Virus record (IMG/VR): IMGVR_UViG_3300037337_000032
Coordinates: 1-64,000 of that record
Reading direction: 5' to 3' (one strand)
DNA: 64,000 bases
Source of the DNA: a virus
Below are positions 2,698 to 62,595 of this stretch, piece by piece; the stretch's first letter is position 1; each line of letters begins with the position of its first letter. The position numbers were made by a program, and so were the translations under genes. The notes beneath the pieces are model-generated. The model saw only the letters and a list, made by a program, of their open reading frames with translations. It did no database searches and was not told the DNA's origin.

Positions 2698-2900
2698 TGA
2701 AATACTTCCATAAAATTAGGTAATGCAAATGAATTGAATATCTCTTCAGTCTCTGCAAAGGTAATCTGATTTGCAACACATAGCAAGTTAAACACTCTAT
2801 TGTCCCCGAGTACACTAAAGAAATCACCCTCTGTTAGCTTATTAAGTTTAACGGGTATAGCGATTATTTCCCAATCTTGAATGTCATGTTCGTTAATCAT
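2682..2900 (-). CDS. Hypothetical protein
   Basis: 72-aa ORF translationally coupled to thyX and the HU-like gene. Confidence 0.55.
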   Translation of the reverse strand: MINEHDIQDWEIIAIPVKLNKLTEGDFFSVLGDNRVFNLLCVANQITFAETEEIFNSFALPNFMEVFQCKLK

Positions 2901-4609
2901 TATAATTCCTCCAGATTGAATACCTTACTGATAGCTTGTGCAACTGCCAATGCAATTTCACGGTGCTCTGTTTGTGTGCTTTCATCTTTACGCACTTCAA
3001 TATAATGGATAAAACTACGAATAGTCCCCTGCATGTATAAACGAGACATTGTATTACCTTCTGGTAGTACTGCACGAGCTTGTTCTTTAGCAATACCGTG
3101 TTCAATTGCCCATTTATAAGCTTCACTAGAAGCTTCAATTACGCGCTTTTGTTGTACTTCCCATTGAAATGCAAGCTTACGGTGGTCATTGTTTTGCATA
3201 TCCAGTGGAATGGAATTCTGACGGTTCTTTGTATCTTGCAGTCGAGCATCACGTAATACAAATGCTAAATCTTTTACAGGATCCGCGTAACGCTGACTAT
3301 TATGGGTAAGAATACCGTTTCCAATGTAATTATGACTCACATGGTCAACTTCCATATCATATGTCATTTGTTCCCCCATATACTTTATAGAGACAACTTC
3401 ACTCCACTCTACAGTAAGTGTATTTCCCTTAGATTTCTCCCTCCAAATTTTACAGTCTCCGTTTAAACCGTGGTGTTCTTTGTGGCACTTCTTGCAAAGA
3501 ACTTCAATGTTGTCCTTATCATAAGCAAACTCAGGATATTCAGCTACAGTTTTAACGTGATGCATTTCCAACTTCTCATTAGAAGAACACCGCTTACATT
3601 TGTAATCAACTGATTGCAAAAACTCACTCCGCAAAGAGGTACACCAATCTGCAATTTTCTGTCTCTCGCTGCGATCTACCCCACCTCTCCATAAATTAGA
3701 TTCGCTACCTTTTCTTGCAGACTTGCGCATTTTTTCAATTGTTTCCATAGAGTGTTTAGGAAGATTGTATCCATAGGCTCCTTTGTTCCAAGCAATAGTA
3801 TATGAAGCTACCTCTTGTTTTGTAAACTGAAGTTTATGAACTTTCAACCATTTGCGAATAGTATGCGTACTAACTTCAGCAGCGTGAGCAATATAATTCA
3901 AGCCCTCACCTGACGCAATAGCTTCCTCTTTTGTTGCTGAAAGCCAAGCTTTGTCTTGATGTACAGCAATACCGTTACAAGCTAAGAAAGATTTTTTACG
4001 CATTGCTGCTGTGTCATTTGACATAAATAATCCTACAGCTTCTTCCATAGTTTGAAAACCATCTTGAGTAAAGAACTTGTGTTCTTTAGTCGCGGTAATA
4101 GACTTACCATTTGCCAACGTAAGTTTAAACACAGGTTTGATACCTGTACAAAATACTTCCTTAATGCCTACAGCAGTAAACACTTTACTTTTTTCATCAA
4201 ATACACGAACATATTTTGGCAAGCTACCTTTTAACTGGAGATTGTATAAGTGCTCAATACTGCGTTTATAGGCAGATCGTTTACTATTTTTAACTCCACT
4301 TGGTAGTTCAAGTGTAATTAAAGTATCACCTGCTACACAAAACTCCTGAAATGCAAAGCTACGGTGACGCAAGATCTGTCTTGCAATATCACGGGTAGTT
4401 TCAATCTCTACCGTAGCACTTGCCATTTCAAACGGAGAAAAATGCTTATGCTTTAGTAGATACTTCAAAAGCTTATCTGCAGTGTCATTATTAAATTGAT
4501 TACTCGGATTAGATACCCTAGCACAAAAAGCAATAAGATCTTTTGCTGAACTAAAGCTTTCTTTGAATTCTTCTGCTGCTTGCGTGTAACCTACTAATTT
4601 TACTTTCAA
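2900..4609 (-). CDS. thyX: Flavin-dependent thymidylate synthase ThyX, intein-containing
   Basis: HFSPFE, RQILRHRSFAFQEF|intein|SQRY, AKEQARAVLP, TQ.EHR motifs; mature protein about 222 aa. Confidence 0.93.
   Translation of the reverse strand: MKVKLVGYTQAAEEFKESFSSAKDLIAFCARVSNPSNQFNNDTADKLLKYLLKHKHFSPFEMASATVEIETTRDIARQILRHRSFAFQEFCVAGDTLITLELPSGVKNSKRSAYKRSIEHLYNLQLKGSLPKYVRVFDEKSKVFTAVGIKEVFCTGIKPVFKLTLANGKSITATKEHKFFTQDGFQTMEEAVGLFMSNDTAAMRKKSFLACNGIAVHQDKAWLSATKEEAIASGEGLNYIAHAAEVSTHTIRKWLKVHKLQFTKQEVASYTIAWNKGAYGYNLPKHSMETIEKMRKSARKGSESNLWRGGVDRSERQKIADWCTSLRSEFLQSVDYKCKRCSSNEKLEMHHVKTVAEYPEFAYDKDNIEVLCKKCHKEHHGLNGDCKIWREKSKGNTLTVEWSEVVSIKYMGEQMTYDMEVDHVSHNYIGNGILTHNSQRYADPVKDLAFVLRDARLQDTKNRQNSIPLDMQNNDHRKLAFQWEVQQKRVIEASSEAYKWAIEHGIAKEQARAVLPEGNTMSRLYMQGTIRSFIHYIEVRKDESTQTEHREIALAVAQAISKVFNLEEL
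3299..4339 (-). mobile_element. Intein in ThyX (347 aa) carrying HNH endonuclease and NUMOD3-like segment
   Basis: Starts CVAGDT, block B ATKEHKFFT, ends TYDMEVDHVSHNYIGNGILTHN followed by Ser; internal CKRC..LEMHH...NIEVLCKKCHKEHH. Confidence 0.92.
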
Positions 4610-14968: not shown

Positions 14969-15069
14969 GCAACTGTAGCTCAGTGGTAGAGCAGGAACCG
15001 ACTCATGGCGAAGGGCCAAATGCAGTCGGGTAAACTAAGCCGTTGGTTCGAGTCCAACCAGTTGCACCA
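14969..15069 (+). ncRNA. tRNA-like RNA (101 nt) with canonical acceptor, D and T arms but an extended non-canonical anticodon arm
   Basis: GCAACTG/CAGTTGC-A-CCA, GCTC-AGTGGTA-GAGC, GTTGG-TTCGAGT-CCAAC; central CCGACT/AGTCGG long hairpin. Confidence 0.8.
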
Positions 15070-58647: not shown

Positions 58648-61334
58648 TTATGATACTAATGAACTGCGATACTCAGGTATTACACCAGAAGCACCCGATC
58701 CAAAGGGGTTTGAACCTGTGAAGTCAGGTAGTGAAAACGTAGGAATAACTAGCTCTTTATTTAACAAAAGAAAGGCATCTGAACAAACGTCTGCAATGTC
58801 ATCTTTCTTTTTAGGGTCACCATCGAATACTTCAAGTTCATCATAAAACGCTTTGTTCCAGTCTGCTTTTACTACATTAATAAAACCAGCTTGTGCTACA
58901 CTTGAGAATGGTGCAAAGCGAGTAACCTTTGATTTAACTGGTTTAGACAACCTTACGTTGAAGCCCATCTCTCCTAATTTGCGCTGTAAATCTCTTGCAT
59001 AAGCTCCAGCAGCAGCAGCAGGATCAAGAGGGATAGATACTGTTACATCTTGACCATCATGCACTGCAGTCTCAAAGATCATTTTCTCTACGTTATGCAC
59101 TCTATCTCTCATAGACCGTAGATCTTCTACAGTATACACATTAGTACTATCCTTTGACATTAGCACGCCACGAGTCCAGTCTGGATTAGGGTACTGCTCC
59201 GAAGGCAAGCTAAAGGCAAGATCCCATGCTCTAATGCGCTTCTTAGCTCTTCCGTTAGGTAGCTCTACCTCTTGTACCCACTCGCGTTTAAACAGCCCAG
59301 AGGACTGCTGACGAGCGTACCATGAACCTAGTAGCAACCGTTCCATTTCTACTCTAGGCAATGCCTTGAGTTTAGATATATAGGTAGGATCTGCTTTCAT
59401 CAGTGGAGGGTTATCGTAGATTGTACCCGGTATGAACTTAAAGGTAAGAATACCAGATTGATCTCCTCCACCGTAAGTATCTTCTAGCTCTCGCTTAGTA
59501 TCCGACCACACAAGAGATCCACCTGCTACTTGCACCATGTAGCGCATCGGGTATATTTCTTTTCTAATTGGTATACCACGTTCATCTAATGCGAATTCTA
59601 CCCACTCTCTGATAAAACTATCATAGTCTGGATTGCCTGTAGCAAATGCTTGCTTCTTATAATCCACAGAAGTAGACCGTAGACGTGAAAGCAGGTAAAC
59701 TACGTTATCTTGATTCAACTGCTGTATTTCATCAAAGCCTAGAAACGTTATTTCTGAACCTTGATAGTTATACTTATCTGAAGCAGTATCTAAATATCCA
59801 AAACGTAATTTAGCTCCAGAACGAAAGATTAGCTCCTGCTCGCGCACTTTTACTCTCAGCTTAGGATCTACTTTTTTATACAGATTTACTGCTGAATCAA
59901 ATAAACCGCCTGGATTAGATATCTGTTTAGTAGTTCTTCTGAAGATTACACCACGAGTTCTAGGGTGGTGACAGAACTTCAGGAATGCACCTAAAAGACA
60001 GTGCGAATTATGAGTAACAATGTAATTACTCGTTAAGAATAATCTGTCTTCACCTGAAATACTTATGCATGTAGCGTAATCTGAGGCAACTTTTGTTATG
60101 CTGATTATGCGATTGCCAGTAATCTTGAACTTAGTCCTTGTACTTTTTCTAGGTAAGCTGAAGAGTTTGCTCTGATATTTACCTCTGATATATAAGTTGT
60201 ATGAATCTAAGCATGGTACCTTAGCACCTAACTTGTTTTTGTAATACGTCTTTTTAACCTTAATAGAACAAGTAAACCCAAGCGAATGCAATACCTGTTT
60301 GATATCCGAAGCTAGTACCTCAGATGCAGTAGAATAATAACAAGCACCGCCTGCGTCTACATAGCCGTCTGTATCCATCAAACCTTGTAGAAGGTTGAAA
60401 CGATCCTCTACTGTACTTCTTTTATATTCTTCTGGTATGAACTTAGTTTCAGACCTTTTACCATATAAGTTTAATTTCTTTAGTGCAGGTACTAGTTTTT
60501 GAACACCATACATAAATACATTATTAGGTTTCTCCGATGAGTACCTATTTACAGTATAACCTTCACTGCGAATTCTATCGATAATCTCTACATCTTGAGA
60601 GGTAATAGTAGCAATAGTTGACACTAAGCAGCCATCACCAATAAGCGCACCAAGTGTATATGGGGCTATATCTAACTGCTCTTTATCAAAGCCTATAGGC
60701 TCTGTAAGAGGTAGTATAGGTCTGAAACCTTTACCTAGTCTATTCAAAAGATGAAGAGTTGTATCAACCTTAACCTTGCCTCTGCCTCTAGCTTCATGGT
60801 AAGACCAAAGGTGCTCACCGCAAACATCTACAGTAGAAGCATCTTGCATCTCAACCCTGTAAATATCTACTACACCCTGTGGGAATATACCTGTTACTTT
60901 TTCCTTTGTGTTCTTGTGGGTTATTACTGTTTCGCCAATATAGATATCTTCTACATTCTTGAAACCAACATCAGTGAGCACTTTTTCACCATGTCTAAGT
61001 GCTTTACCAGAACCAGCTGCCTTTACTGTTATATGCTTCGTTAGAGCATCCCAAGTTTCCTTGGGTGTCGGACTATATCTTTGCAACTCAATGCACCTAC
61101 TGTTTCAGCTCCACTTGGAGCTTACTCCCTTGCGGGATAGTCTCTACACACGCCCGAAGTTTCCTTCTGCTTGGCTCGGTATTGCCCTCGTCTTTACGTT
61201 AGGGTTTCACCGAATTAAATAGGTTTTAAATGGAGGCGCATATGTTCACCACCATAGAATGTAATATCTGCATCACTCATTAAGAATTGTTCCTGAGCAC
61301 TAGATGCAGGTGAAAATACAATGTTACTTGACAT
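58648..61334 (-). CDS. terL: Terminase large subunit; exon 1 61334-61248, exon 2 61020-58648; contains an intein
   Basis: Spliced MSSNIVFSPASSAQEQFLMSDADITFYGG+AAGSGK|intein|S restores Walker A; Walker B FLGFDE, TGNP, RAWDLA, DD..D; mature about 487 aa. Confidence 0.92.
60007..61002 (-). mobile_element. Class-3-type intein (Ala1, 332 aa) with LAGLIDADG endonuclease in TerL Walker A
   Basis: ALRHGE start, EHLW block B, ATCISI block F, VTHN followed by Ser; LGALIGDG and LQGLMDTDG. Confidence 0.9.
61021..61247 (-). mobile_element. Self-splicing group I intron (IA2-like, 227 nt, no ORF) in terL
   Basis: Exon ends in U, intron ends in G; P1 AUGGUGGU/GCCUCCAU, P4 UUCGGU/ACCGAG, P7 GACUA/UAGUC, P7.1 and P7.2 hairpins, P9 GAAA. 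Confidence 0.92.
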
Positions 61335-61342
61335 TTATATCC

Positions 61343-61687
61343 TTAATCCGAGTTAATTACTTTTAAGCTAAATACTGGAGCATTCTGCTGCTGAATCTCA
61401 ATACCTGCTTCATCTTGTGCTTCTTCTGTGTCATACATATCTAAAGTTAATCTGCGATAGTTATCCAAAAGGATAGTTGCAGCTTTTAGCTGATTTTGAT
61501 GCGAAGCTTCTTGGTTCTTCATGATACTTGCAGCCTGTACAATAGCTTCAGCGATATGGGGCTTAATTCGCCTTAACAGCATAACCAACTCACGTTCTTT
61601 TAGTTCGCGGTTAGTTGGCTTATCACCTACAGTGTCTTGTCTAGGTGGTCTTCCCTGCGGGTTACCTGATTTACCTTTTATAAACAT
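61343..61687 (-). CDS. terS: Terminase small subunit-like protein
   Basis: F.KG.SGNP.GRP N-terminus, Q.KAA..LL; directly upstream of terL. Confidence 0.7.
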   Translation of the reverse strand: MFIKGKSGNPQGRPPRQDTVGDKPTNRELKERELVMLLRRIKPHIAEAIVQAASIMKNQEASHQNQLKAATILLDNYRRLTLDMYDTEEAQDEAGIEIQQQNAPVFSLKVINSD

Positions 61688-61701
61688 TTAATCTCTCCTA
61701 T

Positions 61702-61903
61702 GTTAGCTCTGGTTACGATTCCAGAATAGCCCTCTCGTAGCTATCGCCGATTAATACGCTGTTACTTTGAATAAGTACTTGGCTTGCTATGGCAGCAAGC
61801 TACCATCTGCAATACTCAGCTGAAGTGCAAACTTCATGTTACCTCGCAACAGATTCGAGGGACGCCTAAAACCGCAGCGACAACGTACCCAAGGTAGAGT
61901 TCC
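61702..61903 (-). ncRNA. Candidate ~200-nt multi-stem pseudoknotted RNA between tRNA-Tyr and terS
   Basis: Seven or more complementary segments, no ORF, GC-richer than flanks. Confidence 0.55.
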
Positions 61904-61988
61904 TGGTGGATATTCTAGGAGTCGAACCTAGTTGCCCGAAGGCCACAGATTTACAGTCTGCTGCAGTCGCCAATGCTGCTCAACATCC
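61904..61988 (-). tRNA. tRNA-Tyr(GUA)
   Basis: GGATGTT/AATATCC acceptor, GCAGA-CT GTA AA-TCTGT, variable arm GCC-TTCG-GGC, CTAGG-TTCGACT-CCTAG, CCA. Confidence 0.93.
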
Positions 61989-62019: not shown

Positions 62020-62090
62020 TGGTAGCAGAGGAAGGACTCGAACCTTCTGCATCGAGCTTATGAGACTGACGGATACCCTGAATCCCTGCG
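62020..62090 (-). tRNA. Atypical tRNA-Met(CAU)-like gene with shortened D arm and 1:72 mismatch
   Basis: CGCAGGG/CTCTGCT-A-CCA, CT CAT AA loop, GAAGG-TTCGAGT-CCTTC. Confidence 0.6.
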
Positions 62091-62565: not shown

Positions 62566-62595
62566 ATTATAGCACAAGATATGCTGTATTTCAAG
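62566..62595 (-). promoter_or_regulatory. Sigma70-like promoter for tRNA/terminase unit
   Basis: CTTGAAATACAGCATATCTTGTGCTATAAT on minus strand. Confidence 0.65.

What the first reader, a model, noticed from the sequence alone, without database searches (positions are those of the whole stretch)
61702..61903. ~200-nt pseudoknotted RNA between tRNA-Tyr and the terminase genes
Minus-strand pairings: UACC/GGUA; UGUCGCUG/CGGCGAUA enclosing CCUCG/CGAGG, UGAAG/CUUCA, UGAGUAUU/AGUACUUA and GCUUGCU/AGCAAGC; then UAGC/GCUA and UCUGG-AAUCGUAA-CCAGA. Loop AUCUGU can pair with GCAGAU, forming a pseudoknot. It starts right after the tRNA CCA and ends at the terS RBS. It could be a new phage ncRNA, a ribozyme, a cis-regulator of terminase expression or a packaging-related RNA.
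Basis: inference. Interest (0 to 1): 0.72.

Follow-up and report, generated by a model that had tools for sequence, protein, structure and literature searches.

The report
New folded RNA beside phage tRNAs
The 200-base gap between tRNA-Tyr and the packaging genes of this salt-lake phage encodes a real, intricately folded, pseudoknotted RNA from an uncatalogued family. Many uncultured water phages carry it once per genome, often inside their tRNA gene rows, and its job is unknown.

Summary
The flagged stretch (minus strand, 61700-61903) is a real structured RNA. A covariance model built only from eight relatives finds it at 84 bits, E = 3e-28. Across 38 distinct long forms, 94% of predicted pairs form, against 68% when shuffled and 32-42% when slid, and 37 of 48 pairs show compensatory changes.

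Its long-range helix UGUCGCUG/CGGCGAUA is not conserved. The pseudoknot is real, but the loop's partner is AACAG just before a conserved CGU, not GCAGAU.

No Rfam 15 family matches. T4 rnaC and rnaD do not match my models.

At least 55 distinct members occur in uncultured aquatic phage contigs and in one isolate, Limnohabitans phage DC31. Each of six complete genomes has one copy.

The RNA is not terminase-specific:
- It abuts tRNAs of five identities.
- It lies between two tRNAs in two phages.
- Shorter forms precede hsp20 in T4-like phages.

I read it as a stand-alone RNA released by tRNA processing and acting through its conserved loops (about 45%). A cis-acting leader of the packaging operon is the main rival (about 30%).

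First readers of this scan flagged look-alike stretches in other genomes.

The parts
61700..61903 (-). The whole structured RNA (long form, about 204 nt).
   Evidence: Model R1, built without the window, matches 61700-61904(-) at 84 bits, E = 3e-28.
61904..61988 (-). tRNA-Tyr(GUA). Its 3' CCA directly abuts the RNA's 5' end.
   Evidence: ARAGORN; Rfam tRNA at 43.3 bits.
61893..61903 (-). 5' single-stranded tail GGAACUCUACC (family consensus RAACCYACC). It is conserved but unpaired in the model. It resembles an anti-Shine-Dalgarno sequence and can pair with the downstream AGGAGAG.
   Evidence: Alignments. Duplex energy is -7.6 kcal/mol in the window, but across the family pairing with a sequence's own SD region is no better than with another member's.
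61889..61892 (-). P1 5' strand, UUGG. It pairs with CUAA at 61703-61706 and closes the whole fold.
   Evidence: RNAalifold. 92.8% paired over 38 sequences, but only A-U to G-U variation, so weakly tested.
61871..61886 (-). P2 hairpin (ACGU/GCGGU with one bulged G). The loop UGUCGCU lies at 61876-61882.
   Evidence: Helix 2. The stem covaries: CCGUU/AACGG changes to CCGAAG/CUUCGG. The loop is near-invariant.
61860..61867 (-). Near-invariant junction block AGGCGUCC.
   Evidence: Invariant in 23 of 23 5' domains. Variants GGUGUCC and GAGCGUCC appear. The proposed pairing GGC/GCC is not supported (73.6% paired).
61842..61860 (-). P4 hairpin CCUCG/CGAGG with loop AAUCUGUUG (61847-61855).
   Evidence: Helix 5: 100% paired, 4 of 5 pairs with two-sided changes.
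61848..61852 (-). Pseudoknot 5' strand, CUGUU, inside the P4 loop.
61756..61763 (-). Pseudoknot 3' strand AACAG (61759-61763), followed by the conserved CGU (61756-61758).
   Evidence: own 4.5 against cross 2.8 Watson-Crick pairs, 0 of 10,000 permutations reach the observed value.
61821..61842 (-). Junction GUAACA (61837-61842) and P5 hairpin UGAAG/CUUCA (61821-61836).
   Evidence: Helix 6: 97.4% paired, 6 of 6 pairs with two-sided changes.
61772..61818 (-). P6, UGAGUAUU/AGUACUUA. Its loop carries the conserved GCCAAG (61778-61783) and a lineage-specific inserted hairpin GCUUGCU/AGCAAGC (61782-61800).
   Evidence: Helix 7: 96.7% paired, 8 of 8 pairs with two-sided changes. The insertion is seen only in the window and L002.
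61727..61743 (-). P7 hairpin UAGC/GCUA with loop UACGAGAGG (family consensus NACGAAANG, a GNRA-type cap).
   Evidence: Helix 8: 5 of 5 pairs with two-sided changes.
61708..61725 (-). P8 hairpin UCUGG/CCAGA with conserved loop AAUCGUAA.
   Evidence: Helix 9: 99.5% paired. The loop is AUAAAGUAA in short forms.
61703..61706 (-). P1 3' strand, CUAA.
61343..61699 (-). Shine-Dalgarno AGGAGAG (61693-61699) and the 114-aa ORF (61343-61687). I take the ORF to be the small terminase from its position directly upstream of terL.
   Evidence: DUF5681 at 26.5 bits, against a cut-off of 27.5. PHROG 3900, of unknown function. terL follows. 'terS' is an inference.

Best explanation
It is a gene for a compact, stand-alone non-coding RNA of about 195-205 nt.

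**Fold.** A closing helix P1 holds a multi-helix junction. The junction carries P2, an optional P3 (absent here), a domain of P4, P5 and P6 locked by a pseudoknot between the P4 loop and the strand after P6, and then P7 and P8.

**How it is made (inferred).** In this phage it is transcribed with the upstream small ORF, a tRNA-like element and tRNA-Tyr. A sigma-70-like promoter lies near 62566-62594. The RNA's 5' end would be made when the tRNA is cut out. In phages where a tRNA follows, RNase P cleavage of that tRNA would make the 3' end.

**How it acts (inferred).** It works in trans through its near-invariant unpaired blocks: the P2 loop UGUCGCU, the junction GGCGUCC, GUAACA, the P6 loop GCCAAG and the P8 loop AAUCGUAA. 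These would bind a conserved partner, most likely a host or phage protein of the RNA or translation machinery. It does not control terS specifically. Because the phage genome is packed, in this phage it also forms the structured 5' end of the packaging-gene mRNA.

**Shown:** the fold, the pseudoknot, the family, the contexts and the copy number.
**Inferred:** transcription, processing, action in trans and the partner.
For: **Fold and family.**
- The model built without the window hits it at 84 bits.
- 94% of cells pair and 37 of 48 pairs have two-sided changes on 38 sequences.
- The pseudoknot covaries.
- Many G-U pairs on this strand only point to RNA rather than duplex DNA.

**Independence from the downstream gene.**
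- In L148 the RNA fills the gap between tRNA-Ala (ends 6425) and tRNA-Asp (starts 6621). In L154 it lies between tRNA-Val and tRNA-Asn. In L256 tRNA-Pro follows 79 nt downstream.
- The next ORF is 196 nt or more away in L060, L109 and L205.
- An HNH gene lies between the RNA and terS in L005.
- Downstream genes are heterogeneous: terS-like, HSP20, RF-like and unknowns.

**Link to tRNA processing.** The RNA abuts the 3' end of tRNAs of five identities: Tyr, Thr, Ala, Val and Trp, the last in a weak hit.

**Gene-like distribution.**
- Six of six complete or near-complete genomes hold exactly one copy.
- It is present in unrelated phage types. This phage has a PolA and a T7-like primase-helicase. 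L042 is T4-like, with a clamp loader, RegA and PolB.

**Transcription in the window.** There is no minus-strand terminator between the promoter-like site at 62594-62566 and terS.
Against: - There is no expression data. No RNA run holds the sequence, so transcription, processing and stability are all unproven.
- In most long forms the RNA ends 10-15 nt before the start codon of a terS-like gene. A cis role is therefore a natural reading.
- The 5' CCUU can pair with the Shine-Dalgarno AAGG/AGGAG.
- No partner protein was identified. RegA and HSP20 are absent from this genome.
- The hairpin after the short forms meets simple terminator criteria in only 1 of 3 loci tested.
Confidence: 0.45

Rival explanations
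1. It is a cis-acting 5' leader of the packaging operon: a riboswitch-like or protein-responsive translational operator, or an mRNA-stabilising 5' structure. In the switch version, forming P1 (UUGG/CUAA) frees the ribosome-binding site. In the alternative fold, the 5' CUCUACCUU tail pairs with AGGAGAG and blocks it. In the stabiliser version, the folded 5' end protects the 5'-monophosphate mRNA left after the tRNA is cut out.
For: - 25 or more long forms end 10-20 nt before the start of a same-strand ORF, usually the DUF5681 terS-like gene.
- The tail and the Shine-Dalgarno region pair at -7.6 kcal/mol in the window, and this pairing is part of the MFE fold.
- The fold has riboswitch-like complexity, with a P1-closed junction and optional peripheral stems.
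- In short forms, CUC pairs with the GAG of the Shine-Dalgarno sequence.
Against: - Copies between tRNAs, or far from any ORF, have nothing to regulate, yet they score as well as the window (93-97 bits).
- The downstream genes share no function.
- Tail/SD pairing with a sequence's own SD region (-4.0) is no better than with another member's (-4.1), so it is generic CCUU:AAGG complementarity.
- The consensus P1 does not overlap the Shine-Dalgarno sequence.
Confidence: 0.3
2. It is a self-cleaving or otherwise catalytic RNA that separates the tRNA transcript from the downstream mRNA, or caps or protects that mRNA's 5' end.
For: - The fold is complex, with a pseudoknot, GNRA-type caps and invariant junction nucleotides.
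- It always sits at a boundary between transcription units.
- Phage genomes are rich in small ribozymes (my own knowledge).
Against: - No match to any Rfam ribozyme family at E <= 10.
- tRNA-processing enzymes already explain both ends in the tRNA-array copies.
- No candidate cleavage site was identified.
Confidence: 0.1
3. It is a packaging element. It could be an RNA that joins the packaging motor, as phi29 pRNA does. It could instead mark the DNA site (pac or cos) recognised by the small terminase encoded next to it.
For: - It lies directly upstream of the terS-like gene in most long forms.
- There is one copy per genome.
Against: - It is found in T4-like phages between regA and hsp20, far from any terminase gene in the 9.5-kb locus.
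- It is found inside tRNA arrays.
- Compensatory changes with strand-specific G-U pairs fit RNA, not a duplex DNA site.
- There is no Rfam Phage_pRNA match.
Confidence: 0.04
4. It is a trans-acting antisense RNA against host 23S rRNA. The 5' block CUACCUUAGG(A)CCGUU is complementary to the universally conserved strand joining helices 69 and 70 (about nt 1918-1933 in E. coli).
For: Against the E. coli rrnH operon, the best blastn-short hit of L024 (15 of 16 nt, E = 0.05), of DC31 (13 of 13, E = 0.013) and, jointly or nearly, of L042 and L148 (10 of 10) falls at this one antisense site.
Against: - The E-values are marginal, for a 5.7-kb target and eight related queries.
- The CCGUU part covaries with its own P2 partner and becomes CCGAAG in many members. 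Only a 10-mer therefore stays complementary.
- The block is partly engaged in P1 and P2.
- The window itself has two mismatches.
Confidence: 0.03

Closest known systems
Phage T4 stable RNAs, species 1 (rnaC, 139 nt) and species 2 (rnaD, 119 nt)
   Same: These are small structured RNAs of unknown function, encoded right after a tRNA in the phage tRNA cluster (annotation). They are co-transcribed and processed with the tRNAs (my own knowledge). They are similar in size to the short forms.
   Different: No detectable homology. R1's best hit in the T4 tRNA region is 8.8 bits on the wrong strand, and R2's best is 7.4 bits, E = 0.39, elsewhere. rnaD has a hairpin with the same GUCGCU loop just after the tRNA, and a GUUGCCGCAACGGUUAG stretch lies after rnaC. 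Neither reaches significance. T4 rnaD ends in CCA and this RNA does not.
GOLLD (RF01998) and ROOL (RF03087) large ornate RNAs
   Same: They are orphan, intricately folded RNAs often carried by phages next to tRNA genes. Their function is unknown (PMC12286853).
   Different: They are 500-800 nt and form homo-oligomeric cages. This RNA is 100-205 nt. It has no Rfam match.
phi29-type packaging RNA (pRNA, Rfam RF00044)
   Different: There is no Rfam match. pRNA is restricted to phi29-like phages and is not tied to tRNAs (my own knowledge). This family also occurs away from terminase genes.
cabRNA, the structured RNA from staphylococcal phage terminase genes that activates CBASS (Banh et al. 2023, PMC10686824)
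   Same: It is a structured phage RNA arising at the terS/terL locus (abstract).
   Different: cabRNA is transcribed from within the terminase coding genes. This RNA is intergenic, upstream of terS, and is often not near terminase at all. Sequence similarity was not tested.
Catalogue of 8,495 candidate structured RNAs from IMG/VR (Fremin et al. 2023, PMC10690425)
   Same: It uses the same data source (IMG/VR intergenic regions). It reports candidates upstream of terminase genes and candidates overlapping tRNA-Tyr predictions.
   Different: I could not check whether this motif is among them, because no supplementary files are held. The main text describes nothing like it.
Riboswitch and operator leaders such as the T4 gene 32 pseudoknot
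   Same: They are pseudoknotted 5' leader structures placed just before a ribosome-binding site.
   Different: Those sit only before their cognate gene. This RNA also occurs where there is no gene to control.

Membership tests
Any Rfam 15 family (4227 models, including all ribozyme, riboswitch, pRNA, GOLLD/ROOL, tmRNA and 6S families) | A covariance-model match at or near the family's gathering score. | tested here: not met
   There is no hit in 61700-61903 at E <= 10 or at gathering thresholds. There is none on the elements in L236, L237, L239 and L240 at E <= 1.
T4 rnaC / rnaD stable RNAs | Encoded immediately downstream of a tRNA in a phage tRNA cluster, on the same strand. | tested here: met
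   The window RNA starts 1 nt after the CCA of tRNA-Tyr. L148 and L154 carry it inside tRNA arrays. The T4 layout is shown.
T4 rnaC / rnaD stable RNAs | Sequence or structure homology to rnaC or rnaD. | tested here: not met
   R1 and R2, run with filters off over the T4 tRNA region, give no significant hit on rnaC or rnaD.
T4 rnaC / rnaD stable RNAs | Accumulates as a discrete stable RNA processed from the tRNA precursor. | not testable with these tools
   No RNA sequencing run holds the sequence.
Riboswitch (cis-acting aptamer plus expression platform) | The aptamer is consistently in the 5' UTR of functionally related genes. | tested here: not met
   The downstream genes are terS-like, HSP20, RF-like, unknowns, tRNAs or nothing.
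Riboswitch (cis-acting aptamer plus expression platform) | An expression platform with mutually exclusive pairings that involve the Shine-Dalgarno sequence or a terminator. | tested here: inconclusive
   Tail/SD pairing is possible but generic. The terminator-like hairpin after short forms passes the scan in 1 of 3 loci. A CUC/GAG mini-hairpin lies over the SD in short forms.
phi29-type pRNA | Match to RF00044, and carried by phi29-like phages next to the genome end. | tested here: not met
   There is no Rfam match. The carriers are genomes of 75-150 kb with tape-measure or T4-like modules.
GOLLD / ROOL | Match to the Rfam model, and a size above 500 nt. | tested here: not met
   There is no Rfam match. 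The length is 100-205 nt.
This new family (working definition) | A 5' block CCUURGG, a P2 hairpin with a GUC(G/A)C loop, RGG(C/U)GUCC, P4 whose loop forms the pseudoknot, and P7 and P8 with a loop ending in GUAA/GUAC. | tested here: met
   The window matches R1 across the full length of the model, positions 1-198. All blocks are located.

The most novel reading that the evidence does not exclude
The RNA is a new functional class rather than one more orphan motif. One possibility is a new ribozyme that defines the boundary between tRNA and mRNA. The other is a trans-acting phage RNA that engages the host translation apparatus. For example, its conserved 5' block is antisense to the 23S rRNA strand joining helices 69 and 70, or it could act as a decoy for a tRNA-directed defence nuclease. 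Its spread across unrelated aquatic phage lineages, as a single-copy gene inside tRNA arrays, would then mark a widely used phage tool.
Probability: 0.12. Interest if true: 0.9.

Novelty: new member of a known kind. Interest (0 to 1): 0.62.

Why it matters
Phage tRNA clusters have been known since T4 to hide small stable RNAs whose function is still unknown.

This family is a well-defined new example. It has a fold of 8-9 helices plus a covarying pseudoknot. It has at least 55 distinct members. It is present in unrelated phage lineages, T4-like and PolA-type. It is always single-copy.

One cultured carrier exists, Limnohabitans phage DC31 with its host DCL3, so the function can be tested directly.

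Sequence conservation across lineages is concentrated in unpaired loops. That argues for a shared molecular partner, and finding it could reveal a general phage strategy in translation control, RNA processing or counter-defence.

For annotation, the result also shows that the gap before terS in these phages is a gene and not a spacer.

Tried and rejected
- **Single-sequence folding significance.** z = -1.24, not informative. The window's MFE (-59.6 kcal/mol) differs from the conserved fold (-31.3), so thermodynamic prediction alone misleads here.
- **First pattern scan** (GTTGTCGCT..AGGCGTCC). Most of the 118 loci were chance hits. All 30 hits of the stricter pattern in bacterial genomes failed the model.
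- **Multi-copy promoter or regulatory box.** Rejected: one copy in the window and in the whole genome.
- **RegA operator idea.** Short forms follow regA. No RegA gene is found in this genome or in five other carriers, although the control search also found none anywhere.
- **Functional link to hsp20.** There is no HSP20 gene in this genome.
- **Closing helix GGC/GCC** (model helix 4) and the alternative GCGU/RCGU. No covariation, 73.6% paired.
It is present in a subset, but sequence swaps are not consistently compensated.
- **Sarcin-ricin-loop mimicry.** The window's P7 loop UACGAGAGG equals 23S 2656-2664. The family consensus is NACGAAANG, so I read the match as incidental.
- **Homology to T4 rnaC/rnaD.** Not detected.
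- **Expression.** No RNA holder is listed among public runs.
- **BLAST of the element against deposited phages.** No match for the window's copy. Only DC31 matches the 5' domain.
- **Supplement of PMC10690425.** Not held.
- **E. coli genome BLAST.** Uninformative for short matches.

Full report
**Setting.** The window is 64 kb of a 74.5-kb viral record with direct terminal repeats. DNA runs from salt-lake metagenomes hold the sequence.

On the minus strand the order is as follows.
- A sigma-70-like promoter site (62594-62566).
- A 99-aa ORF.
- A tRNA-like element lacking a D-arm (about 62023-62090).
- tRNA-Tyr (61988-61904).
- The flagged 200-nt gap.
- A 114-aa DUF5681-like ORF that I take to be terS from its position.
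- terL and a Mu-type portal gene.

The phage has a T7-like primase-helicase, a PolA-type polymerase, a ribonucleotide reductase and a 1165-aa tape-measure protein. Its nearest deposited relative is Limnohabitans phage DC31. DC31 has the same layout of tRNA-Tyr, 200-nt gap and DUF5681 gene, with the gap unannotated.

**Is the structure real?** Folding the window's sequence alone says little (z = -1.24). No Rfam 15 family matches the gap even at E <= 10. The comparative evidence is decisive.

I gathered homologous gaps in four ways.
- Relatives of the terS-like protein in IMG/VR.
- A 5'-domain DNA pattern in IMG/VR (32 loci) and in metagenomes (55 loci, 31 confirmed).
- Two 3'-domain patterns (14 more long forms).
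- The 30 pattern hits in bacterial genomes all failed the model, so they are chance matches.

RNAalifold on a plain MAFFT alignment of eight relatives, without the window, predicted 48 pairs, 26 of them with compensatory changes. The covariance model R1 built from that alignment finds the window at 61700-61904(-) with 84 bits, E = 3e-28.

On 38 distinct long forms aligned to R1:
- 94.0% of cells form standard pairs, against 68.4% after shuffling partners and 32-42% after sliding partners by 1-3 columns.
- 37 of 48 pairs show two-sided changes.

That alignment is fitted to the model, which favours the structure. The MFFT-only result and the slid controls argue that the signal is real. Frequent G-U pairs on this strand indicate an RNA of the same sense as the flanking genes.

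**Anatomy in the window** (coordinates).
- A conserved single-stranded tail, GGAACUCUACC.
- P1: UUGG 61892-61889 with CUAA 61706-61703.
- P2: hairpin 61886-61871 with the near-invariant loop UGUCGCU.
- P3: absent here. In other members it is a hairpin with 10-14 two-sided changes per pair.
- The block AGGCGUCC.
- P4: CCUCG/CGAGG.
- The junction GUAACA.
- P5: UGAAG/CUUCA.
- P6: UGAGUAUU/AGUACUUA. Its loop holds GCCAAG plus a lineage-specific inserted hairpin.
- An A-rich linker.
- The pseudoknot strand AACAG, followed by the conserved CGU.
- P7: UAGC/GCUA, with a GNRA-type cap.
- P8: UCUGG/CCAGA, with loop AAUCGUAA.
- CUAA, and then the Shine-Dalgarno sequence.

Helices P3 to P8 are strongly supported. 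P2's stem covaries: CCGUU/AACGG changes to CCGAAG/CUUCGG. P1 is almost invariant and so only weakly tested. The model's three-pair helix GGC/GCC is not supported.

**The pseudoknot.** GCAGAU lies in the lineage-specific insertion. In the 95%-identical relative it is mutated to GCCGAC with no change in the loop.

Across the family the P4 loop instead pairs with the 4-7 nt immediately 5' of the conserved CGU. Examples are CUGA/UCAG, UUGUAA/UUACAA, UUGUC/GACAA, CAUAA/UUAUG, GUGC/GCAC, UAUAGU/ACUAUA, CUUAUAG/CUAUAAG and, in the window, CUGUU/AACAG.

Over 26 distinct loop/partner combinations, a loop forms on average 4.5 Watson-Crick pairs with its own partner and 2.8 with other sequences' partners. 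None of 10,000 permutations reached the observed mean (first seen). Relatedness of the sequences inflates such tests, but 19 different helix sequences are hard to explain otherwise.

It may be an alternative conformer in this lineage.

**What the contexts say.** The RNA is not tied to terminase.

- **tRNAs upstream.** The RNA starts within a few nt of the 3' end of tRNAs of different identities: Tyr, Thr, Ala and Val.
- **tRNAs on both sides.** In L148 it fills the space between tRNA-Ala and tRNA-Asp inside a 19-tRNA array. In L154 it lies between tRNA-Val and tRNA-Asn. In L256 a tRNA-Pro follows.
- **No nearby ORF.** In L060, L109 and L205 no ORF starts within about 200 nt.
- **Inserted gene.** In L005 an HNH gene has been inserted between the RNA and terS.
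- **Short forms.** Forms of about 100-140 nt keep the 5' domain, P4, a P7-like hairpin and P8, and lack P5 and P6. They precede hsp20 or unknown ORFs.
- **T4-like carriers.** L042 is a T4-like module: clamp loader, RegA, the RNA, HSP20, a GNAT acetyltransferase and PolB.
- **Copy number.** Every complete or near-complete carrier genome tested has exactly one copy.
- **Cultured carriers.** Among 50,697 deposited phage genomes only DC31 carries the 5' domain.

**Interpretation.** A single-copy RNA shared by unrelated phages and embedded in tRNA arrays, with its strongest conservation in unpaired loops, looks like a gene for a stand-alone RNA. The enzymes that mature the neighbouring tRNAs would excise it, as is known for T4 rnaC and rnaD (my own knowledge; layout). 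I give this reading about 45%.

In the window the RNA would also be the 5' end of the packaging mRNA. A cis role (stabiliser, or a switch between P1 and tail/SD pairing) remains the main rival at about 30%. The tail/SD pairing is strong in the window (-7.6 kcal/mol), but across the family it is generic rather than co-varying.

The other readings are minor.
- Ribozyme: about 10%.
- Packaging RNA or pac site: about 4%.
- Antisense to 23S rRNA: about 3%. The 5' block complements E. coli 23S at about 1918-1933 at marginal E-values, but part of that block covaries with its own P2 partner.

No expression data could be found.

**Comparison with known families.** Rfam has no match. The T4 rnaC/rnaD region is not matched by either model. 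rnaD does have a hairpin with the same GUCGCU loop right after its tRNA, and a P2-like string lies after rnaC. These are leads, not evidence of homology.

GOLLD and ROOL share the tRNA neighbourhood but are far larger. The IMG/VR catalogue of candidate structured RNAs (PMC10690425) may contain this motif. I could not check, because no supplement is held.

First readers of this scan flagged look-alike stretches in three other genomes. A follow-up on another genome described a 165-nt pseudoknotted RNA in freshwater-phage tRNA arrays that may be related.

**Verdict.** This is a real RNA family that I did not find catalogued. Its fold is well supported. Its pseudoknot partner and its long-range helix are wrong. 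Its terminase-centred interpretation is too narrow.

Noticed in passing
window 61020-61257 (-), with terL exon 1 about 61258-61334 and the 812-aa ORF 58648-61086: terL is invaded twice within about 35 codons.
- A group I intron (Rfam Intron_gpI, 64.3 bits, 61257-61049) follows the exon-1 peptide MSSNIVFSPASSAQEQFLMSDADITFYGG.
- A LAGLIDADG intein sits in the Walker A motif (AAGSGK | intein ... HN | S).

DC31 terL has neither. The true 3' splice site seems to lie about 27 nt beyond the end of the Rfam match.
   Followed up: partly
window 62023-62090 (-): A tRNA-like element lies just upstream of tRNA-Tyr. It has a perfect T-arm, a CAU anticodon loop and a CCA end, but almost no D-arm (Rfam tRNA 18 bits, missed by ARAGORN). 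It is conserved in the 95% relative L002, whose tRNA-Tyr in turn lacks about 12 nt of the D-arm.
   Followed up: partly
window 2900-4609 (-): The thymidylate synthase ORF (569 aa) has its synthase segments at aa 1-90 and 438-562. An HNH endonuclease domain lies between them. This is an intein or an in-frame mobile insertion.
   Followed up: no
window 14969-15066 (+): Rfam calls a third tRNA here (50.5 bits, 98 nt long) that ARAGORN did not report. It may be a tRNA with an intron or a long variable arm.
   Followed up: no
L244 (phage T4) 2836-2875 (-) and 3140-3172 (-): T4 has a string GUUGCCGCAACGGUUAG followed by a GC hairpin just after rnaC. It also has an rnaD 5' hairpin whose loop, GUCGCU, is identical to the P2 loop of this family. 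Neither is significant by the models (E = 0.54 and no hit). They may be remnants of a common origin.
   Followed up: partly
window 61731-61739 (-): The P7 loop UACGAGAGG is identical to the core of the 23S sarcin-ricin loop (E. coli 2656-2664). The family consensus is NACGAAANG, so the match is probably incidental.
   Followed up: partly
L251 about 3753-4000 (+): In one carrier the ORF right after the RNA is an 82-aa protein with a release-factor-like HIPTGI motif (like ArfB or the RF-1 domain). This is a translation-related neighbour.
   Followed up: no
L005 875-1500 (+): An HNH-type endonuclease gene is inserted between the RNA and the terS-like gene. This shows that the junction between the RNA and terS is a target for mobile elements.
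   Followed up: no
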